The notes beneath the pieces are model-generated. The model saw only the letters and a program-made list of their open reading frames with translations, was not told the origin of the DNA and did not search any database. A DNA stretch of 64,000 nt from an uncultured Gammaproteobacteria bacterium (GTDB lineage: Bacteria > Patescibacteriota > Microgenomatia > CAZETR01 > Amesbacteraceae), in assembly GCA_964502885.1 (NCBI GenBank), contig CAZCXU010000001.1, positions 93,352-157,351 of the forward strand, in the 5' to 3' direction. This document shows, in pieces, positions 42,929-56,297 of the stretch. The position numbers were made by a program, and so were the translations under genes. The first letter of the stretch is position 1; every line of letters starts with the position of its first letter.

Positions 42929-42974
42929 AGGGTTTTTTAGTTGTATTACAATTTGTTGTTTTTGGGGATGTGGG

Positions 42975-43035
42975 CGGAAGGGGCGAATATTGAACTTCGT
43001 TCAAGAATCTCGCAAGACAGCGGAAGGGGCGAGAT
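42975..43035 (-). repeat. Two partial echoes of the 3' end of tRNA-Ser(UGA)
   Basis: CGGAAGGGGCGAGAT at 43021..43035 is identical to the 15 nt at the tRNA 3' end (43096..43110). CGGAAGGGGCGA at 42975..42986 is a 12-nt copy followed by a degenerate T-arm-like hairpin (TTGAAC-TTC-GTTCAA). Confidence 0.8.
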
Positions 43036-43095
43036 GGTGTGCGGTGCTTCGCATCCTCCGTTATCTCGCACTCTTTCTTCGCAGCGGAGCTGCTG

Positions 43096-43182
43096 CGGAA
43101 GGGGCGAGATTCGAACTCGCGAGGGTGTTGCCACCCTAGAGGTTTTCAAGACCTCCGCACTCGACCACTATGCGACCCTTCC
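43096..43182 (-). tRNA. tRNA-Ser (anticodon UGA)
   Basis: The minus strand reads GGAAGGGTCGCATAGTGGTCGAGTGCGGAGGTCTTGAAAACCTCTAGGGTGGCAACACCCTCGCGAGTTCGAATCTCGCCCCTTCCG. The anticodon loop is CTTGAAA, the variable arm is long, and CCA is not encoded. Confidence 0.9.
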
Positions 43183-50224: not shown

Positions 50225-51724
50225 ATGGGCAAAAAAGTAGTCTTTGGGTTGGGTTTATGGGTGGCGGTGTGGGCAAGCTTTTGGTTTATGGGGTGGAAGC
50301 TAATTGACCCTGATTTTGGCTGGCACTTACAGATTGGAAGAAAGTTTTTAGCGGGAGAAATGGTAAAAACTGATCCTTTTTCATATACCATGCCGAGCTT
50401 TCCGTGGATTGATCATGGGAGGGTAACTGATATGGCGATTGCATTTCTGTACGACGGGTGGGGAATGGGAGTCACGGCGGCGGTGTTTGCAGGGATTGGT
50501 ACGGCTGCGTTGATACTGATTATTCCTGTGGGTTTGTGGGTGTGGAGTGTGGTGCCGCTACTGTTTGGCTGGGGAGTATTGGTGATGCGGTCGGGAGTGC
50601 GGCCGCAGATGGAAGATTGGCTGTTTGTGGCGATTATTTGGCGTGCTGTTGAGGCCGGCAGGTGGAAGTTTTTAAGGTGGTTTTTGCCTGTTCTGTTTGT
50701 CATCTGGGTAAATGTTCACGGGGGCTTTTTGTTGGGGTTAATTATTGTGTGTGCGGGAGTGGCGGGTAAGTGGTGGAAAAAACGAAGAATTGTGATATCT
50801 GATGTGATCGTGTGGATACTTTGTCTGTTGGGGACGGGGATAAATTATTATGGATTCAGAATTTGGGAGGAGATTTGGTTGACGGTTTCGGATACGCATT
50901 TGCGGGGCTCGATTGTGGAGTGGCAACCATTTGTGACTCGGGTAGAACTGGGGTTGTGGTTGCTTGGCGGAATGGTGTTTTTTGCTGGTAAAAAGTTTTT
51001 ACGCAATTTATCTGCGAGCAGGTTATTAATTGTTGCAGCGGTGACGGCTGCCGGTTTATCTTCATTACGGCACGCGCCATTTCTAGTCATGATTCTGGTG
51101 ACTTTGGGGGCAGAAATATTTAAAAATTTTTATGATGAGATTAAGTCTGATAAAGAAAAGGTAAAAAGAGCGAAGGTTTTTTATGGTGTGCTTCTAGGAT
51201 TGGGACTAATAATATTTGCAATGGAGGGGGGGGTGACTTTGTGGAAAGCCGGGCGCGGCAGACTTCTAAATTATCCTGATGGAGCAATTGAATATCTAAG
51301 GAAAAGTGAGATTTCAGGAAGACTTTTTTCCACTTATTCGTGGGGAGGATATTTGATATGGAAGCTGCCGGAGCAGAAAGTGTTTGTGGATGGAAGAATG
51401 CCGAGTTGGAGGTGGAAAGCTCCGGAAGGAGAAAGCGATTGGGCTTTTGTGGACCATGAAAAAATTCAATCAGGGGAAAAAAGAATGGAGTTGTTTGATA
51501 AATATAATATCAAGACCGTGTTGTGGGCGAAGCCGGCAGAGAAAAAGGGGATTACTGCTTGGTGGCAGAAAATGTGGGGAGGGCGATCGCAGGTTGGATT
51601 TGATGAAGCGTTGAAAAGCGAAGGATGGAAAGTGGTGTATGAGGATGCTATATCGGTGGTATTAACCTATCCAGTACCAGTTGACAAAAAAGAGAGAAAC
51701 GAGACAGAGTCCCAGAGCGGATAA
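50225..51724 (+). CDS. Polytopic membrane protein, possible GT-C-type glycosyltransferase
   Basis: 499 aa with at least 10 hydrophobic helices in the N-terminal 340 aa and a soluble C-terminal domain. It lies in a neighbourhood of glycosyltransferases. Confidence 0.5.
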   Translation: MGKKVVFGLGLWVAVWASFWFMGWKLIDPDFGWHLQIGRKFLAGEMVKTDPFSYTMPSFPWIDHGRVTDMAIAFLYDGWGMGVTAAVFAGIGTAALILIIPVGLWVWSVVPLLFGWGVLVMRSGVRPQMEDWLFVAIIWRAVEAGRWKFLRWFLPVLFVIWVNVHGGFLLGLIIVCAGVAGKWWKKRRIVISDVIVWILCLLGTGINYYGFRIWEEIWLTVSDTHLRGSIVEWQPFVTRVELGLWLLGGMVFFAGKKFLRNLSASRLLIVAAVTAAGLSSLRHAPFLVMILVTLGAEIFKNFYDEIKSDKEKVKRAKVFYGVLLGLGLIIFAMEGGVTLWKAGRGRLLNYPDGAIEYLRKSEISGRLFSTYSWGGYLIWKLPEQKVFVDGRMPSWRWKAPEGESDWAFVDHEKIQSGEKRMELFDKYNIKTVLWAKPAEKKGITAWWQKMWGGRSQVGFDEALKSEGWKVVYEDAISVVLTYPVPVDKKERNETESQSG

Positions 51725-52852
51725 AATAAAAAGGGGGAGGAAAGTTCGAAGAGAAGAAGTTTTTGTGGCAAGAAATATAAATAAGGGAAAGGAGACGCTT
51801 TGAAAGCGGGTAAATGCGGCCAGATCGCGAACTAACAAGGGGGTAAGAAAGATCGATAAGGATACGCCCCAAAGAACAAGGGGAAGGGTTTTACGGCTAA
51901 GATATAACAAGATGATCACAAAAAAAGCAACGAGGTTGTCAAGCTGGGAAGCGTGAACAGTATGGAAAGGTAGGTCTATTGTTTTCATAAGTAGTATGAG
52001 GTTGAGAATGGGGGCGGGAAGAACCATCGGACTGTACCAAACTGATTGGATGGCGAAGAAATAGATGGGATTATGTGCGGTTAAGTAATTGAATACCATC
52101 CAAACCAACATGGGTAGGCCGATGATTGTCGGATATACAACAGCCGTAAGCGGTTTAATTTTGGTTTCGACTATGGATTTAATCAGAATGAACAGGAAGA
52201 TGAAATTGACCAGAACAACTGTTCCTTTGGTTACATTTATCAGACCCAGCAGGATGGACGCGGGGAGGAACTTCTTTTGTAATAGGAAGTAGCTAAACCA
52301 GACAAGGAACAGCATTAGCAATGATTCCGCGTAATATGAGCGGAAAAAAATGGAAAAAGGGAAGACAAAAAGCAGCCAGGAAGCGCGTATGGCTATTTGT
52401 GGATTGTATAGCCTTGAAATTACAATCATTAAACTGAGAAAATTGCATACAAGAAGGATTTGAGTGAGGATAAAGGCGGCGAGTAACGAGTCTTTGAAAA
52501 TGACTTTGGTGAGCCAGCCTAGTAGTGGAAATGCAGGGAAAAAGGCATACGAAGGATTTTGCATAAGACTTTTGTCGTTGAGTGATTGCTCTGTGGGAGA
52601 AAACGAGTATCCAGAATCAATAATTTTTAAATACCATTGGGCGTCAAACTGGGCCATTCCGTGAAGAAGGTTGAAACCTTTTCCTGTGATGCGGGGATCT
52701 GTGAAGTAGTGGTGGGCATCATTGTGGTATGAAAAGCGGTTGAGGGGGATGAATGTGTGGAAAGTGCCGATAAAAAAGTAAAGAAGTGTATTGAATAGCA
52801 TAAATAACAAAGTGTGGCGAATCAGTATGTGTGGGGTTGGGGGGCCAGCCAT
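51662..52852 (-). CDS. Mannosyltransferase (PIG-V/PMT_2-like) GT-C membrane protein
   Basis: Contains the first-loop motif FDAQWYLKIIDSGYS, typical of the PIG-V-like family, and about 10 TM helices. Confidence 0.6.
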   Translation of the reverse strand: MAGPPTPHILIRHTLLFMLFNTLLYFFIGTFHTFIPLNRFSYHNDAHHYFTDPRITGKGFNLLHGMAQFDAQWYLKIIDSGYSFSPTEQSLNDKSLMQNPSYAFFPAFPLLGWLTKVIFKDSLLAAFILTQILLVCNFLSLMIVISRLYNPQIAIRASWLLFVFPFSIFFRSYYAESLLMLFLVWFSYFLLQKKFLPASILLGLINVTKGTVVLVNFIFLFILIKSIVETKIKPLTAVVYPTIIGLPMLVWMVFNYLTAHNPIYFFAIQSVWYSPMVLPAPILNLILLMKTIDLPFHTVHASQLDNLVAFFVIILLYLSRKTLPLVLWGVSLSIFLTPLLVRDLAAFTRFQSVSFPLFIFLATKTSSLRTFLPLFILSALGLCLVSLFFVNWYWIG

Positions 52853-52885
52853 GATAAAATTCTACAGCAGTGTGGAGTTGGTTTT

Positions 52886-52981
52886 GGAGAGGTCGCATAC
52901 AGGAGCCTCTATCTTCAACCTCGCGGTTGAAGTTTCTCCTGTATTACTTCCTCTCCTCGTTTCACTTGGAGAGGTCGCATA
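52886..52981 (+). repeat. Two upstream echoes of the 5' end of tRNA-Ser(GGA), the first forming a 71-nt tRNA-sized rod-like hairpin
   Basis: GGAGAGGTCGCATA occurs at 52886..52899 and 52968..52981 as well as at the tRNA 5' end (53101..53114). The first copy also shares the upstream TGGTTTT. Segment 52886..52956 closes with GGAGAGG/CCTCTCC, the same pairing as the tRNA acceptor stem. It contains the nested stems ATACAGGAG/CTCCTGTAT and CTTCAACC/GGTTGAAG. Confidence 0.8.
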
Positions 52982-53100
52982 TCAAACTTGCAGTTTGATA
53001 TAGCTTGCCGTGCTTTGTCAAAAATTGTAAAAATTTTTGAGTCGCAGGGCGCACTATAGCAAGCTATTTGACCTTATTTGTAATAAAATTTACTGGTTTT

Positions 53101-53190
53101 GGAGAGGTCGCATAGTGGTCTAGTGCGCACGCTTGGAAAGCGTGTGTCGCCGAAAGGTGACCGCGAGTTCAAATCTCGCCCTCTCCGCCA
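53101..53190 (+). tRNA. tRNA-Ser (anticodon GGA), CCA encoded
   Basis: The sequence is GGAGAGGTCGCATAGTGGTCTAGTGCGCACGCTTGGAAAGCGTGTGTCGCCGAAAGGTGACCGCGAGTTCAAATCTCGCCCTCTCCGCCA. The anticodon stem is CACGC/GCGTG with loop TTGGAAA, and the variable arm is long. Confidence 0.9.
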
Positions 53191-53461
53191 ATTCGGATTC
53201 GAAAAAAGCTTTTTTAACTCCACTGCTGGTTTGTATTTATGGTGACCGTCGCGTCGAACGCGACTAACGCGCCTCGTCCCGTTAAGCGGGACGCGTGGAA
53301 TCACGAACAAATCTTGCCCTCTTTGGCCAATTCGGATTCGAAAAGAGCTTTTTTAACTCCACTGCTGGTTTGTATTTATGGTGACCGTCGCGTCGAACGC
53401 GACTAACGCGCCTCGTCCCGTTAAGCGGGACGCGTGGAATCACGAACAAATCTTGCCCTCC
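53188..53461 (+). repeat. Tandem direct duplication (2 x 139 bp) beginning in the CCA end of tRNA-Ser(GGA)
   Basis: Unit 1 is 53188..53326 and unit 2 is 53327..about 53461. They differ by a single substitution over about 133 nt (GAAAAAAGC versus GAAAAGAGC). Each unit ends with a degenerate copy of the tRNA 3' end (AAATCTTGCCCTC versus AAATCTCGCCCTC in the tRNA). Each unit contains the palindrome AAAAAAGCTTTTTT (unit 1), hairpin GTCGCGT-CGA-ACGCGAC and hairpin CGTCCCG-TTAAG-CGGGACG. Confidence 0.9.
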
Positions 53462-53470
53462 TTTTAAATC

Positions 53471-53899
53471 ATGTCTGAAGTAAAATTGGAGCATATGCGA
53501 ACAAATGTGAGGGTGGGGGCGATAATTGAGAGGGATGGAAAAATGCTTCTTATTCACCGTTGGAAAAACGGAGATGAATATTGGGTATTGGTTGGTGGTG
53601 GGGTAGAAGAGGGAGAAGATTTGGTTGAGGCGTTGAAACGGGAAGTATTGGAAGAGACCTCTTTGCGGTTGAAGAACTGGGAAGTTGAGATAGAACATGA
53701 AGCAATGGGGATGATGCATAAAATTTTCCGTTGTGTTACTGAAGAAGGGGAGCCTGTATTGGGTGGTCCTGAAAAAGAGGCAGATTCTGATGAAAATAGA
53801 TATGTACTGGAGTGGGTAGATTTTTCTACTATTGCTGAGATTGAGGATATTTACCCGAGAGTCACAAGAGAACTAGCCAGGAAACGCATCGCAAAGTGA
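53471..53899 (+). CDS. NUDIX hydrolase
   Basis: The Nudix box is GGGVEEGEDLVEALKREVLEETSL (GX5EX7REUXEEXGU pattern). Confidence 0.88.
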   Translation: MSEVKLEHMRTNVRVGAIIERDGKMLLIHRWKNGDEYWVLVGGGVEEGEDLVEALKREVLEETSLRLKNWEVEIEHEAMGMMHKIFRCVTEEGEPVLGGPEKEADSDENRYVLEWVDFSTIAEIEDIYPRVTRELARKRIAK

Positions 53900-53925
53900 G
53901 GGGATTGGCCGTAAAATGCATTGAA

Positions 53926-55194
53926 ATGAAGCTACTGACAATTATTGTGCCGGTATTTAATGAGGTTTCCACTCTAGGTGAAGTGAGGAGAAGATTGAAT
54001 GATTTGGTATTGCCTTTTAGTGTAAAAAAACAGATTGTTTGGGTGGATGATAAATCAGCTGATGGAAGCAGGGAAATGCTTTTGAAATGGAAGAAGGAAA
54101 AAAACCGGAAAGAATCTTTTGTGTTTCATCGGAAGAATTCAGGTAAGGGAGCTGCTGTGCAGAGCGGGCTTTTGGAGGCGGTCGGGGATTATGTGGTGAT
54201 ACAGGATGCTGATTTGGAATATCATCCACTTGATATAAAAAAACTGGTAAGTTTAGCAATCAGGAAGAATCTGCTGGCGGTGTATGGGAGCAGGGATAGG
54301 GAGATTAAGAACAAGTATCTCTATCCACATTACTATTGGGGATCACGTTTTTTGTGTTTTTTGATGCGAGTTTTCCATGGCCAGAAACTGACGGATCCGG
54401 AGACTTGCTACAAGCTGATTCATAAAGATGTGCTTAAGTTTATCGGGGTCGAAGAGAAGGGTTTTGGAATGGAGATTGAAATTTCGGCAAAATTGGCCAG
54501 ACTGCGATTGGATATTGGTGAGGTGGGCATTGGATATACACCAAGAAGTTTTTCTCAGGGTAAAAAAATTCGGGCAAAAGACGGGTTGATTGCTATGGGG
54601 CTGATACTGAAGTACTGGCTGTCGGATTTGCATTATGGGTGGTTTGACAGGATTTTGCGAAAATGGCGCAGGGATGCGATTTTTAACGAGTTGAATATTG
54701 ACGAAACTGATGTGGTGATGGATGTGGGCTGTGGAAGGCAGGCTGACTTGGGTTGGAAAATGAGTGGGCAAATAAAACAATATGTGGGAGTGGATATGTC
54801 GGTACCGGAAGTTCGGATCGGCAACATATCTTTACTGAAACGGAATTTAGAAATGGCATTTGTTGTGCCGGATAAAATGCGACCCACGAAGCTGGTTGGG
54901 ATGGCAATTTTGGAGCACCTGAAACATCCGGAAAGTTTCTTAAAAAACTGCCACAAATTATTAAAGCCCGGGGGAATTTTGGCTCTAACCACTCCAGCGC
55001 CACCATTGGCCGATTTAGTTTTGAGAATACTTTCGTGGGTGAAGCTAATTGATGGAGGAGAGATAGACGATCATAAAAAATATTTCGGAATGAGAGAATT
55101 GGAAGAGAAGTTGAAAAGTGCCGGTTTTGAACTGATCAGAAAGAAAAAATTCATAGTGATTTTTAACAACATGGTAATGGCTAGGAAAATATGA
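53926..55194 (+). CDS. Fusion: family 2 glycosyltransferase + class I SAM-dependent methyltransferase
   Basis: The start is MKLLTIIVPVFNE (the track ORF begins at 53896). The GT2 motifs are VWVDDKSADGS and VVIQDADLEY. The C-terminal MTase motifs are VVMDVGCGRQAD and LKPGGILALTTP. Confidence 0.8.
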   Translation: MKLLTIIVPVFNEVSTLGEVRRRLNDLVLPFSVKKQIVWVDDKSADGSREMLLKWKKEKNRKESFVFHRKNSGKGAAVQSGLLEAVGDYVVIQDADLEYHPLDIKKLVSLAIRKNLLAVYGSRDREIKNKYLYPHYYWGSRFLCFLMRVFHGQKLTDPETCYKLIHKDVLKFIGVEEKGFGMEIEISAKLARLRLDIGEVGIGYTPRSFSQGKKIRAKDGLIAMGLILKYWLSDLHYGWFDRILRKWRRDAIFNELNIDETDVVMDVGCGRQADLGWKMSGQIKQYVGVDMSVPEVRIGNISLLKRNLEMAFVVPDKMRPTKLVGMAILEHLKHPESFLKNCHKLLKPGGILALTTPAPPLADLVLRILSWVKLIDGGEIDDHKKYFGMRELEEKLKSAGFELIRKKKFIVIFNNMVMARKI

Positions 55195-56297
55195 AGATGC
55201 TTGTATTGGTGGCGGTGGTGATATGGTCCTTGGTGTTTGTGTATTTTGGTTATTCGGGGATGGTAACGCAGCCGAATGAGGGAGATAGTCTGGCATATCA
55301 TTTGCCGATTGCGCAGATGATTGGTGCGGGTAGCTGGATGGATAGGAGCAACTTTTTGAAACCATTTTATTTTTATCCTGCCATGGGGGAGACGTTTCTT
55401 TCGGGAATAATGAAAGTTGGGTTGCCGGCGAATTGGTTTAACTGGTTGGGGTGGATAATGTGGTCGGGAATTGTCTATGGATTGTTGAGGATGGCCGGAT
55501 TGGGACGGTCTGAAAGTGTGATAGGAGCTGTGGGGGTGGTGATGTGGCCATCTGTGGTGCGACTTATTCCCAATCAGACTGTGGATATATGGATGGGGGT
55601 GTGGTGGGCTGCTGCTGCAAGACAATTGCTTTTACGGGGTAGAAGCTCGCTTTGGGCTGGGATTTTTTTGGGGATTTTGAGCGGGACGAAAGTTTCCGGG
55701 TTGCTGTTTTCTGTTGTGTTGTGGCTTGTGCTCAGCAGGAGCTGTGATAGAAAATTATGGGCAGCTTGGGTGGTAGTGGGAGGTTTCTGGTATATACGCA
55801 ATCTATTACTAACCGGCAATCCGATTTATCCTGCTAGTGTGTTTGGGTTTGTCGGTGATCCCAATTTTCATCTAATGGATTGGTCAGTGGCAAAGACACT
55901 GAGCAGTTTTGCGGGATGGCGATTGTGGAGTAGTGCGTTGATGTCAGAATATCTGGGATGGATGGGTTTGCTTGTGCTGCCCCTGTGGTTGCGGAACAAG
56001 TGGACGCTACTTGGACTTTTGAATTTGGGTGTTTATTTGTTGCTGCCATCGTGGCCGCAAAACATTGTGTCGGATTTGCGATACGCATTTGTGGTGTTTC
56101 TACCGCTGACCGTGGCAATGTGGAAAGAGGTAAAGAAAAGGCGATTAGAAGTGTGGATGGGGCTAATGACGATTTGTATGGCAGTGATGGAATTGACTCA
56201 GCTGGATTTCCGGCCGAAGTTGTTTGTGGTTGGTCTGGCAATTTCGGGATGGGTGCTTTACCGAAGGAGGGTAGATGTGGAAAAGTTTTTGGCATAA
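55191..56297 (+). CDS. Polytopic membrane protein, GT-C (ArnT/PMT-like) candidate
   Basis: 368 aa with about 10 TM helices and an acidic first loop (NEGDSLAYHLPIA). It overlaps the upstream gene by 4 nt. Confidence 0.5.
   Translation: MKMLVLVAVVIWSLVFVYFGYSGMVTQPNEGDSLAYHLPIAQMIGAGSWMDRSNFLKPFYFYPAMGETFLSGIMKVGLPANWFNWLGWIMWSGIVYGLLRMAGLGRSESVIGAVGVVMWPSVVRLIPNQTVDIWMGVWWAAAARQLLLRGRSSLWAGIFLGILSGTKVSGLLFSVVLWLVLSRSCDRKLWAAWVVVGGFWYIRNLLLTGNPIYPASVFGFVGDPNFHLMDWSVAKTLSSFAGWRLWSSALMSEYLGWMGLLVLPLWLRNKWTLLGLLNLGVYLLLPSWPQNIVSDLRYAFVVFLPLTVAMWKEVKKRRLEVWMGLMTICMAVMELTQLDFRPKLFVVGLAISGWVLYRRRVDVEKFLA

What the first reader, a model, noticed from the sequence alone, without database searches (positions are those of the whole stretch)
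52886..53114. 5'-end echoes of tRNA-Ser(GGA), including a 71-nt tRNA-sized hairpin that reuses its acceptor stem
The first 14 nt of the tRNA (GGAGAGGTCGCATA) occur twice more upstream. Copy A (52886..52956) ends in CCTCTCC, so it closes with the same 7-bp acceptor pairing as the real tRNA. Inside, it folds as a long nested rod (ATACAGGAG/CTCCTGTAT enclosing CTTCAACC/GGTTGAAG) instead of a cloverleaf. Copy B continues into the perfect hairpin ATATCAAACT-TGC-AGTTTGATAT. This could be a degenerate tRNA pseudogene or a tRNA-mimic small RNA. It could also be debris of recombination at the 5' side of the gene.
Basis: seen in the sequence. Interest (0 to 1): 0.5.

Follow-up and report, generated by a model that had tools for sequence, protein, structure and literature searches.

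The report
Leftover tRNA gene starts from nuclease cassettes
The two upstream copies of the start of the serine tRNA gene are real and most likely scars left when small nuclease-carrying mobile DNA cassettes inserted into this gene, a habit that relatives of this uncultured bacterium share and that I could not find described.

Summary
GGAGAGGTCGCATA occurs three times on the + strand. The copy at 52879 and the one at the tRNA share 21 nt. Copy A folds as the described 71-nt rod (z = -6.9), and copy B runs into a perfect 10-bp hairpin.

The echoes are neither tRNA pseudogenes nor chance. In 125 related tRNA-Ser(GGA) loci from Patescibacteria-like metagenomes, 5' gene pieces lie upstream in 17. 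3' pieces lie downstream in 12, and wrong-side controls give 2-3. The echoes break at loop-coding positions (about 14, or 34/35) and are followed by hairpins.

In nine loci an 80-95 aa GIY-YIG nuclease ORF fills the gap between echo and tRNA. One locus keeps an internally deleted ORF. One relative is an empty site, showing that the echo marks the resident tRNA start.

The window holds such an ORF beside its tmRNA gene. Its hairpin motif recurs only in the 139-nt repeats downstream of this tRNA.

Best reading (about 0.6): copies A and B are ORF-less relics of such cassettes. No ORF trace is left in the window. The copy A rod keeps its pairing in two distant relatives (8 of 17 pairs compensatory), so a structural role remains open. 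Mobility and cleavage are inferred, not shown.

The parts
52879..52899 (+). Echo A: 7 nt of tRNA leader plus tRNA-Ser(GGA) positions 1-14, identical to 53094-53114
   Evidence: (D2)
52897..52944 (+). Rod of copy A. Outer stem is 52897-52905 with 52936-52944. Inner stem is 52913-52920 with 52925-52932. The outer stem starts inside the echo, at ATA of tRNA positions 12-14.
   Evidence: z = -6.9. Pairing is kept in L005 and L003, with 8 of 17 pairs doubly compensated. The inner stem is flagged terminator-like with a weak T tail.
52950..52956 (+). CCTCTCC, which closes copy A with GGAGAGG (52886-52892). It is identical to the 3' acceptor strand of the tRNA. It is followed by TCGT..ACTT, as in the short fillings of L046 and L123.
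   Evidence: It is not significant on its own (p = 0.29).
52961..52981 (+). Echo B: tRNA positions 1-14 plus TT of the leader (17 of 21 to the reference repeat)
52979..53001 (+). Hairpin B1, ATATCAAACT-TGC-AGTTTGATAT, a perfect 10-bp stem that starts in ATA of the echo
   Evidence: (I13)
53002..53065 (+). Hairpin B2, a long imperfect hairpin AGCTTGC...GCAAGCT with an inner AAAAATT/AATTTTT stem. Together with B1 it gives a twin-hairpin layout.
   Evidence: fold of 52961-53100, z = -3.55
53084..53089 (+). -10-like hexamer TAAAAT, 11 nt before tRNA +1. This is the usual spacing in relatives and is an inferred promoter of the tRNA.
   Evidence: The consensus scan did not call it.
53101..53190 (+). 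tRNA-Ser(GGA), intact, with CCA encoded
   Evidence: 57.6 bits
53187..53463 (+). Two 139-nt tandem units. Each carries the hairpins GTCGCGTCGAACGCGAC (53248-53264, 53387-53403) and CGTCCCGTTAAGCGGGACG (53275-53293, 53414-53432). Each ends in a 3' echo of the tRNA (53308-53322, 53447-53461).
   Evidence: There is one unit only in a second assembly of the same species (L001). The hairpin motifs are shared with the GIY-YIG cassette at the tmRNA gene and with cassettes in relatives.
39882..40166 (-). 94-aa single-domain GIY-YIG (UPF0213-like) ORF, 75 nt downstream of the tmRNA gene on the same strand. It is a candidate source of nuclease in trans.
   Evidence: (PF01541, E = 2.8e-14)
40185..40241 (-). 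Two CGCGTCNNACGCG hairpins between the tmRNA 3' end and the GIY-YIG ORF. In 64 kb this motif occurs only here and in the 139-nt units.
   Evidence: expected 0.17; p = 0.014
42974..43035 (-). Two 3' echoes of tRNA-Ser(TGA) (gene at 43095-43182, minus strand), lying downstream of it: ATCTCGCCCCTTCCGC exact, and GTTCAATATTCGCCCCTTCCGCC

Best explanation
Copies A and B are ORF-less relics, or possibly non-autonomous members, of small mobile cassettes that target tRNA-type genes in this Patescibacteria-like lineage.

A full cassette has a structured hairpin module and an 80-95 aa single-domain GIY-YIG nuclease gene. It also carries a copy of the end of the tRNA gene it interrupts. It enters at a loop-coding position of the gene: about nt 14 in the D loop, 34/35 in the anticodon loop, or the T loop. 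Because it carries a copy of the gene end, an intact tRNA is rebuilt next to it. The resident gene end is left behind as an echo that abuts the hairpins.

Upstream-type cassettes leave a 5' echo and downstream-type cassettes leave a 3' echo. The ORF is later lost by internal deletion. The direct repeats then promote unequal crossing-over.

In this window, two successive upstream events left A (68-nt filling) and B (112-nt filling, which now holds the likely promoter). A downstream event left the 139-nt unit, which was recently duplicated.

Shown: the anatomy, its recurrence, its polarity, the ORF-bearing, ORF-decayed and empty forms in relatives, and a related ORF with shared hairpins in the window. 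Inferred: that the nuclease drives insertion (homing-like repair), the order of events, and that A and B now have no function beyond carrying spacer or promoter sequence.
For: 1. Recurrence and polarity. In 125 tRNA-Ser(GGA) loci, exact 10-mers of the 5' half recur within 500 nt upstream in 17, and 10-mers of the 3' half recur downstream in 12. Wrong-side controls give 2-3 and reverse-strand controls 0-5. Other tRNAs in the same loci give 3 of 90 upstream, against 14 of 95 for Ser(GGA).
2. Echoes track their own tRNA. GGAGGGG tRNAs have GGAGGGG echoes (L031, L075, L123), and a GGAAGGG tRNA has a GGAAGGG echo (L005).
3. Shared breakpoints. Echoes break at nt 13-14 in window A and B, L003, L005, L046 and L123 (ORF-less). 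They break at the same place in L025, L044, L071 and L116 (ORF-bearing), and at 16-19 or 34/35 in the others. Hairpins always start at the break.
4. A GIY-YIG ORF (PF01541, E = 1e-13 to 1e-16) fills the echo-tRNA gap in L025, L044, L068, L071, L073, L075, L094, L103 and L116. Of 17 such ORFs in 824 kb, 15 lie within 400 nt of a tRNA or tmRNA gene, all on its strand. They sit next to Gly(GCC), Arg(CCG), Ser(GCT) and tmRNA as well as Ser(GGA).
5. Empty versus occupied site. L082 has the same upstream gene end directly before its tRNA. In L044 that gene end precedes the echo, and the tRNA lies 321 nt further on.
6. Decay series. L019 keeps only the N- and C-terminal codons of the ORF (..SYKGGLQFNK*; p = 0.001 against L103).
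7. In L073 the 5' echo (GGAGAGG) and a 3' echo (CCCTCTCC) match each other, not the central tRNA (GGAAGGG/CCTTCC).
8. Within the window there is a GIY-YIG ORF next to the tmRNA gene. Its CGCGTCNNACGCG hairpin occurs elsewhere only in the 139-nt units. The cassette-type hairpin TCCCG..CGGGA occurs only in those units. tRNA-Ser(TGA) also has two 3' echoes.
9. The copy number of the 139-nt unit differs between two assemblies of the species.
Against: - No trace of an ORF survives between the echoes and the tRNA in the window (tblastn; DNA comparison).
- The window's 5' hairpins are AT-richer than the GC-rich twin hairpins of ORF-bearing cassettes and are not detectably homologous to them.
- No empty-site or ORF-bearing allele of this particular locus was found. 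The exact-protein look-ups found only a 1.4-kb contig or nothing.
- The copy A rod keeps its pairing through 8 double compensatory changes in L005 and L003. A dead scar would not be expected to do this.
- In most echo-bearing relatives the promoter-like -10 precedes the echo, but in the window it precedes the tRNA.
- An 80-95 aa GIY-YIG domain has no DNA-binding domain.
- The rebuilt tRNA would itself remain a target, so classical homing is not a clean fit.
- Mobility is inferred from comparative anatomy only.
Confidence: 0.6

Rival explanations
1. The echo-plus-hairpin modules are functional RNA or DNA structures kept by selection. One version is a leader element that sequesters the duplicated 5' strand so that it cannot mispair with the tRNA 3' acceptor strand. 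Another is a terminator or insulator between the divergent membrane-protein gene and the tRNA. A third is a mini-helix substrate or decoy for RNase P or CCA-adding enzyme.
For: - The copy A rod folds far better than shuffles (z = -6.9).
- Its two helices are 92% paired across window A, L005 and L003. 8 of 17 pairs show double compensatory changes, and slid controls give at most 2.
- In L003, L005, L033, L046, L075 and L123 a good -10 hexamer sits 9-12 nt before the echo, so there the echo is probably part of the pre-tRNA leader.
- The short fillings of window A, L046 and L123 close with an acceptor-like stem.
- The inner stem of A is flagged terminator-like.
Against: - Only about 12-14% of related loci have an echo, with variable number, distance (-49 to -338) and filling sequence.
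- ORF-bearing and ORF-decayed versions of the same anatomy exist.
- In this window the -10-like hexamer lies downstream of A and B.
- No Rfam family matches.
- The covariation rests on three sequences, and the structure was derived from one of them.
- Both strands fold, so the constraint could be at the DNA level.
Confidence: 0.15
2. The echoes arose by local duplication without any mobile element: replication slippage, unequal crossing-over, or a tandem tRNA gene copy that then lost its interior (a degenerate pseudogene).
For: - Unequal crossing-over is clearly active here, with one versus two 139-nt units in two assemblies.
- L085 has a 42-nt unit repeated about 3.5 times next to its cassette.
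- Copy A begins with nt 1-14 and ends with the 3' acceptor strand CCTCTCC, like a gutted tRNA. With free-length insertions allowed, similarity to the tRNA reaches p = 0.04.
Against: - Fillings A and B resemble neither each other nor the tRNA interior.
- The breakpoints fall on the same loop positions used by ORF-bearing cassettes.
- The strict polarity and the enrichment at Ser(GGA) are not expected from random slippage.
- The echoes are mostly 14 of 14 identical, while everything after them is unrelated.
Confidence: 0.15
3. The echoes are attachment-site remnants of integrase-driven genomic islands or prophages that once sat in the tRNA gene and were later deleted.
For: Direct repeats of tRNA gene ends are the classic signature of tRNA-targeted integration. 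3' echoes downstream of tRNAs are common in these loci (12 of 125 for Ser(GGA), 11 of 90 for other tRNAs).
Against: - By established knowledge, integrative elements almost always duplicate the 3' part. Here the 5' part is duplicated.
- No echo lies further than 338 nt from its tRNA in loci of up to 14 kb.
- The five ORFs flanking the tRNA between 50225 and 56297 have no recombinase domain.
- The gene found inside the repeats in relatives is a GIY-YIG nuclease, not an integrase.
Confidence: 0.07

Closest known systems
[quoted passage not shown]
   Same: A GIY-YIG nuclease gene sits among tRNA genes. SegB recognises a 27-bp site built around the conserved T-stem-loop motif of tRNA genes and cuts inside them. 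It spreads itself and neighbouring tRNA genes into genomes that lack it. The T-loop breakpoints of the downstream-type cassettes here resemble this.
   Different: SegB is a full-length enzyme of about 220 aa (687-bp clone) in a phage. The ORFs here are 80-95 aa catalytic domains only (UPF0213-like), in cellular genomes. They come with hairpin modules and with a partial duplication of the target tRNA gene. Cleavage was not tested here.
Homing-endonuclease ORFs in fungal mitochondria that carry a replacement end of the host gene and leave the resident end as a pseudogene fragment (the Allomyces atp6 case), together with GC-rich double-hairpin elements. This is from my own knowledge; those papers were not retrieved.
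   Same: The logic is the same. A GIY-YIG ORF inserts into a gene together with a copy of the gene's end. The gene stays intact and a displaced fragment remains as an echo. Short GC-rich double hairpins accompany these elements.
   Different: The targets there are protein-coding organelle genes, with the ORF fused in frame. The targets here are tRNA and tmRNA genes in bacteria, entered at loop-coding positions, on either the 5' or the 3' side.
tRNA-targeted integrative elements (att-site duplication of the tRNA 3' end)
   Same: The element restores the tRNA gene with its own copy of the gene end. The displaced end remains as a direct repeat.
   Different: Those elements use tyrosine or serine recombinases, are kilobases long and duplicate the 3' part. 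Here the inserts are 50-340 nt, the gene inside is a GIY-YIG nuclease, and 5' duplication is frequent.
Group I introns in Patescibacteria tRNA genes at position 35/36 (PMC13011429)
   Same: The same phylum-level setting, and the same kind of insertion point in the anticodon loop (34/35 or 35/36 in L019, L062, L083, L094 and L103).
   Different: Those are self-splicing ribozymes inside a single functional gene. Here the interrupted copy is a truncated fragment, the inserts are 30-nt hairpin pairs, and a separate intact tRNA lies next to it. No group I intron was called in the window.

Membership tests
tRNA gene or pseudogene (Rfam RF00005, ARAGORN) | Cloverleaf model match at or near the family threshold (29 bits) | tested here: not met
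   ARAGORN calls only 53101-53190 in this region. Rfam finds no tRNA hit on 52879-53100 even at E <= 10.
tRNA gene or pseudogene (Rfam RF00005, ARAGORN) | Sequence similarity to the parent tRNA along its length | tested here: not met
   Beyond nt 14, local alignment is no better than shuffles (A p = 0.29, B p = 0.39). With free insertions, A reaches p = 0.04 (through CCTCTCC only) and B p = 0.68.
Homing-endonuclease-type mobile cassette (free-standing GIY-YIG) | A nuclease ORF with intact GIY-YIG catalytic residues inside the insert | tested here: not met
   There is no ORF or remnant between 52900 and 53100. The feature is met at the same site in nine relatives and beside the tmRNA gene in the window.
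Homing-endonuclease-type mobile cassette (free-standing GIY-YIG) | Presence/absence polymorphism at an otherwise conserved site | tested here: inconclusive
   Met in relatives: L082 is empty while L044, L025 and L075 are occupied with a shared upstream gene. For the window's own locus no second allele covering the 5' side was found. The 3' unit number does differ.
Homing-endonuclease-type mobile cassette (free-standing GIY-YIG) | Site-specific cleavage of the cassette-free allele, with the cassette-bearing allele immune | not testable with these tools
   This needs enzyme assays. By inspection, the rebuilt tRNA is identical to a naive target in most loci, which argues against simple immunity.
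Homing-endonuclease-type mobile cassette (free-standing GIY-YIG) | A DNA-binding domain joined to the catalytic domain | tested here: not met
   The ORFs are 79-107 aa and Pfam matches only the catalytic domain. The best solved relatives are the 96-107 aa UPF0213 proteins 1ywl and 1zg2.
Integrase-type tRNA-targeted island (att repeats) | A recombinase gene between direct repeats of the tRNA 3' end | tested here: not met
   The five ORFs flanking the tRNA (50225-56297) have no recombinase domain. All echoes lie within 338 nt of their tRNA. The finding concerns the 5' end.
Dispersed palindromic repeat (REP- or MITE-like) | Many copies of the same unit in the genome | tested here: not met
   Fillings A and B have no second copy in the 64-kb window. 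Only 64 kb of the genome was available.
Intrinsic terminator | A GC-rich stem-loop followed by a run of T | tested here: inconclusive
   The inner stem of A (52913-52932) plus TTTCTCCTGT passes the simple scan. One such site is found and 1.2 are expected in shuffles.

The most novel reading that the evidence does not exclude
Copies A and B, the 139-nt units and the tmRNA-linked ORF may belong to an undescribed family of selfish cassettes in Patescibacteria. Such a cassette would pair a single-domain UPF0213-type GIY-YIG nuclease with a conserved hairpin module. It would enter tRNA and tmRNA genes at loop-coding positions and carry its own copy of the gene end, so the gene is rebuilt without splicing. 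The ORF-less hairpin-plus-echo units, such as copy A with its rod conserved in L003 and L005, would be non-autonomous members still moved in trans by a nuclease copy elsewhere in the genome.
Probability: 0.35. Interest if true: 0.75.

Novelty: new variant of a known kind. Interest (0 to 1): 0.6.

Why it matters
If the reading holds, tRNA and tmRNA genes of these reduced genomes are invaded again and again by very small nuclease cassettes. The cassettes avoid killing the gene by bringing a spare copy of its end rather than by splicing.

That would give a cellular, tRNA-targeted counterpart to phage SegB and to mitochondrial endonuclease ORFs. It would suggest a role for at least some members of the uncharacterised UPF0213 family. 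It would also explain tRNA gene fragments and odd hairpins that confuse annotation of uncultured-bacteria genomes.

For this window alone the consequence is modest. The echoes are probably scars, and the repeats make the locus prone to copy-number change.

Tried and rejected
- Exact-protein look-ups for the window's own genes gave only a 1.4-kb contig or nothing, so no second allele of the 5' side was obtained.
- I tested whether A or B are decayed full-length tRNA copies. I rejected this, with no interior similarity.
- I tested whether filling B or the whole 5' echo region retains GIY-YIG coding DNA or resembles the window's tmRNA-linked cassette. It does not.
- Rfam at permissive thresholds gave only noise hits: a miRNA, a snoRNA, a plastid UTR and sX4.
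- The promoter/terminator consensus scan gave no more sites than shuffles.
- A viral scan with the tRNA pattern found 2 contigs. The one I could read is a plain phage tRNA cluster without echoes.
- Five of the six literature searches looked for GIY-YIG or UPF0213 with tRNA, tmRNA or the Candidate Phyla Radiation and found no description of this arrangement. The sixth looked for the Allomyces precedent and did not retrieve it.
- I considered a T-box-like or primer-binding-site logic and dropped it. The echo copies the 5' strand through the D stem rather than complementing the tRNA 3' end (from the sequence).

Full report
**1. The observation**

The 14-mer GGAGAGGTCGCATA occurs exactly three times on the + strand, at 52886, 52968 and 53101. 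The last is the start of tRNA-Ser(GGA) at 53101-53190. Even with two mismatches allowed, the only further match in 64 kb is the start of tRNA-Ser(TGA). 0.33 matches are expected by chance.

The repeat is longer than reported. TGGTTTTGGAGAGGTCGCATA (21 nt, including 7 nt of leader) is identical at 52879 and 53094, and copy B matches 17 of 21.

MFE is -34.5 kcal/mol with z = -6.9. The opposite strand folds just as well, so this is a DNA palindrome as much as an RNA fold. Copy B runs into a perfect 10-bp hairpin and then a long imperfect one.

Neither copy is called as a tRNA by ARAGORN or by the Rfam model, even at E <= 10. Beyond nt 14, neither shows significant similarity to the tRNA.

**2.

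The 3' side mirrors the 5' side. Two 139-nt tandem units (99% identical) follow the tRNA, and each ends in an echo of its T arm and 3' acceptor strand. A second assembly of the same species (L001, from SRR12404947) has only one unit, so the copy number is polymorphic or recently changed.

Elsewhere in the window, tRNA-Ser(TGA) has two 3' echoes downstream of it. An intact-looking 94-aa GIY-YIG ORF lies 75 nt downstream of the tmRNA gene on the same strand.

**3. The organism**

The flanking genes are membrane glycosyltransferase-like proteins, a NUDIX hydrolase and a GT2-methyltransferase fusion. The nearest named homologues are from Candidatus Woesebacteria and Parcubacteria, at 42-54% identity. 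This is therefore a Patescibacteria-like (CPR) genome with no close sequenced relative.

**4. Relatives**

Four syntenic loci were reached through homologues of the GT2-methyltransferase gene. Two of them carry an echo.

- L003 has GGAGAGGTCGCATA at -79, followed by a hairpin.
- L005 has a tRNA that starts GGAAGGG, and it has GGAAGGGTTGCATG at -70, followed by a hairpin.

The echo therefore follows its own tRNA. The rods after the echo in window A, L005 and L003 align. Their 17 base pairs are 92% paired, with 8 pairs doubly compensated, while slid controls give at most 2. That is only three sequences, and the structure was taken from one of them.

A metagenome scan with the 5' half of the tRNA gave 120 further loci. 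In the 125 loci analysed (120 from the metagenome scan, four syntenic relatives and the window):

- Exact 10-mers of the 5' half recur within 500 nt upstream in 17.
- 10-mers of the 3' half recur downstream in 12.
- Wrong-side controls give 2-3 and reverse-strand controls 0-5.
- Other tRNAs in the same loci show 5' echoes in 3 of 90, against 14 of 95 for Ser(GGA).
- No echo lies further than 338 nt from its tRNA.

**5. What fills the gap**

In L025, L044, L068, L071, L073, L075, L094, L103 and L116, the space between echo and tRNA holds a 79-107 aa ORF that ends 3-30 nt before the tRNA. It is a GIY-YIG catalytic domain (Pfam E = 1e-13 to 1e-16). The catalytic Tyr, Tyr, Arg, His and Glu are conserved (His in at least 90% of the sequences, the others in all), and there is no second domain. 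The nearest solved structures are the UPF0213 proteins 1ywl and 1zg2.

Of 17 such ORFs in 824 kb of fetched sequence, 15 lie within 400 nt of a tRNA or tmRNA gene, all on its strand. Their neighbours include tRNA-Gly(GCC), Arg(CCG), Ser(GCT) and the window's tmRNA gene. The loci were chosen for tRNA-Ser(GGA), so only the four next to those other genes are free of ascertainment.

Where the ORF is downstream (L025 Gly, L038), a 3' echo follows it.

Echoes break at loop-coding positions: 11-19 (most often 13-14), or 34/35. One or two hairpins sit exactly at the break, often of the type TCCCGC-loop-GCGGGA. In many loci the tRNA sequence resumes after the hairpins (significance).

**6. Direction of events**

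- **Empty and occupied sites.** L082 is an empty site. The same upstream gene end that directly precedes its tRNA precedes the echo in L044, and the L044 tRNA lies 321 nt further on behind hairpins, ORF and a new leader. The echo is therefore the resident gene start.
- **Decay.** L019 retains only the first and last codons of the ORF (..SYKGGLQFNK*; p = 0.001 against L103). ORF-less forms therefore arise from ORF-bearing ones.
- **Nesting.** In L073 the 5' echo and a 3' echo match each other in the acceptor stem but not the central tRNA. An ORF-plus-tRNA insert is therefore nested in a broken resident gene.

**7. Links inside the window**

The motif CGCGTCNNACGCG occurs only between the tmRNA gene and its GIY-YIG ORF, and in the 139-nt units (0.17 expected). 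It sits at a similar distance from the RNA gene end in both places (p = 0.014).

The cassette-type hairpin TCCCG..CGGGA occurs only in the 139-nt units. In the loci it lies near tRNA genes in 14 of 22 cases.

The 3' units are thus tied to the cassette family by sequence. The 5' echoes are tied to it only by anatomy: the same breakpoint at nt 14, a hairpin starting inside the last 3 nt of the echo, and a twin-hairpin layout in B.

**8. Interpretation**

I conclude, at about 0.6, that A and B are ORF-less relics of upstream-type cassettes, and that the 139-nt unit is a relic of a downstream-type cassette later duplicated by unequal crossing-over between the tRNA 3' end and its echo.

The mechanism by which cassettes enter is inferred. 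The most economical model is a break in the tRNA gene repaired from a donor whose echo and rebuilt tRNA serve as the two homology arms.

**9. Points that do not fit cleanly**

- The rebuilt tRNA remains a perfect target.
- The nuclease has no DNA-binding domain.
- The copy A rod keeps its pairing across distant genomes.
- In the window the -10-like hexamer at the usual 11-nt spacing precedes the tRNA rather than an echo. In L003, L005, L033, L046, L075 and L123 it precedes the echo instead.

**10. Rivals**

- A selected structural RNA or DNA element: 0.15.
- Duplication without any mobile element: 0.15.
- Remnants of integrase att sites: 0.07.

**11. Comparison with known systems**

The closest experimentally studied case is T4 SegB, a GIY-YIG homing endonuclease in a tRNA gene cluster. 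It recognises the T-stem-loop motif of tRNA genes and spreads itself and neighbouring tRNA genes (PMC2330249).

The logic of bringing a spare end of the host gene is known to me from mitochondrial endonuclease ORFs (my own knowledge). Integrative elements use the same logic at tRNA 3' ends.

Group I introns at 35/36 in Patescibacteria tRNAs share the setting but not the anatomy (PMC13011429).

Five literature searches found no description of single-domain GIY-YIG ORFs with hairpins and tRNA echoes in bacteria. That covers a limited library and is not proof of novelty.

**12. Verdict**

The finding is real and non-random. It is best read as scars of a recurrent, probably undescribed kind of tRNA-targeted nuclease cassette. 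The window's own copies are likely inert. Interest is 0.6, and the novelty class is a new variant of a known kind.

Noticed in passing
window 39882-40166 (-), next to the tmRNA gene at 40241-40639 (-): An intact-looking 94-aa single-domain GIY-YIG (UPF0213-like) ORF starts 75 nt downstream of the tmRNA 3' end. Two CGCGTCNNACGCG hairpins lie in the spacer. After its stop comes a sequence resembling a tRNA-Ser 3' end (GATTCCGGCTTCGCCTTCCGCA), not a tmRNA echo.
   Followed up: partly
window 42974-43035 (-), downstream of tRNA-Ser(TGA) at 43095-43182 (-): There are two 3' echoes of tRNA-Ser(TGA): ATCTCGCCCCTTCCGC (exact, 59 nt downstream) and GTTCAATATTCGCCCCTTCCGCC. Short hairpin-containing fillings lie between them.
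   Followed up: partly
window 53187-53463 versus L001 1-214: The 139-nt unit downstream of tRNA-Ser(GGA) is present twice in the window but once in a Logan contig of the same species (SRR12404947). That contig also starts inside the tRNA D loop.
   Followed up: partly
window, whole: The + strand has a very strong GC skew (0.3-0.5 over 50-64 kb and 34-40 kb, against about 0.1 where genes are on the minus strand). This looks largely gene-strand linked.
   Followed up: no
window 40241-40639 (-): The tmRNA has an unusually long predicted tag peptide, ARVEGFVAKVNPFNSIFSTQFAPRMLYA.
   Followed up: no
L085, about 440-300 nt upstream of tRNA-Ser(GCT): A 42-nt unit containing CACCGCCAATTCGAAGAAAAAA is repeated about 3.5 times in tandem just before a GIY-YIG ORF. 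It resembles the sequence right after the window's tRNA-Ser(GGA) (CCGCCAATTCGGATTCGAAAAAAGC).
   Followed up: no
L008 3629-3716: ARAGORN calls a 'tRNA-Pyl' (anticodon CTA) in a Woesebacteria contig, between two tRNA-Arg genes. It may be a suppressor-type or miscalled tRNA.
   Followed up: no
L028, L029, L126 and L034, downstream of tRNA-Ser(GGA): Several 3'-side fillings contain GGATTCGAACC-type sequences. These are the reverse complement of a T arm, which suggests inverted tRNA fragments within the fillings.
   Followed up: no
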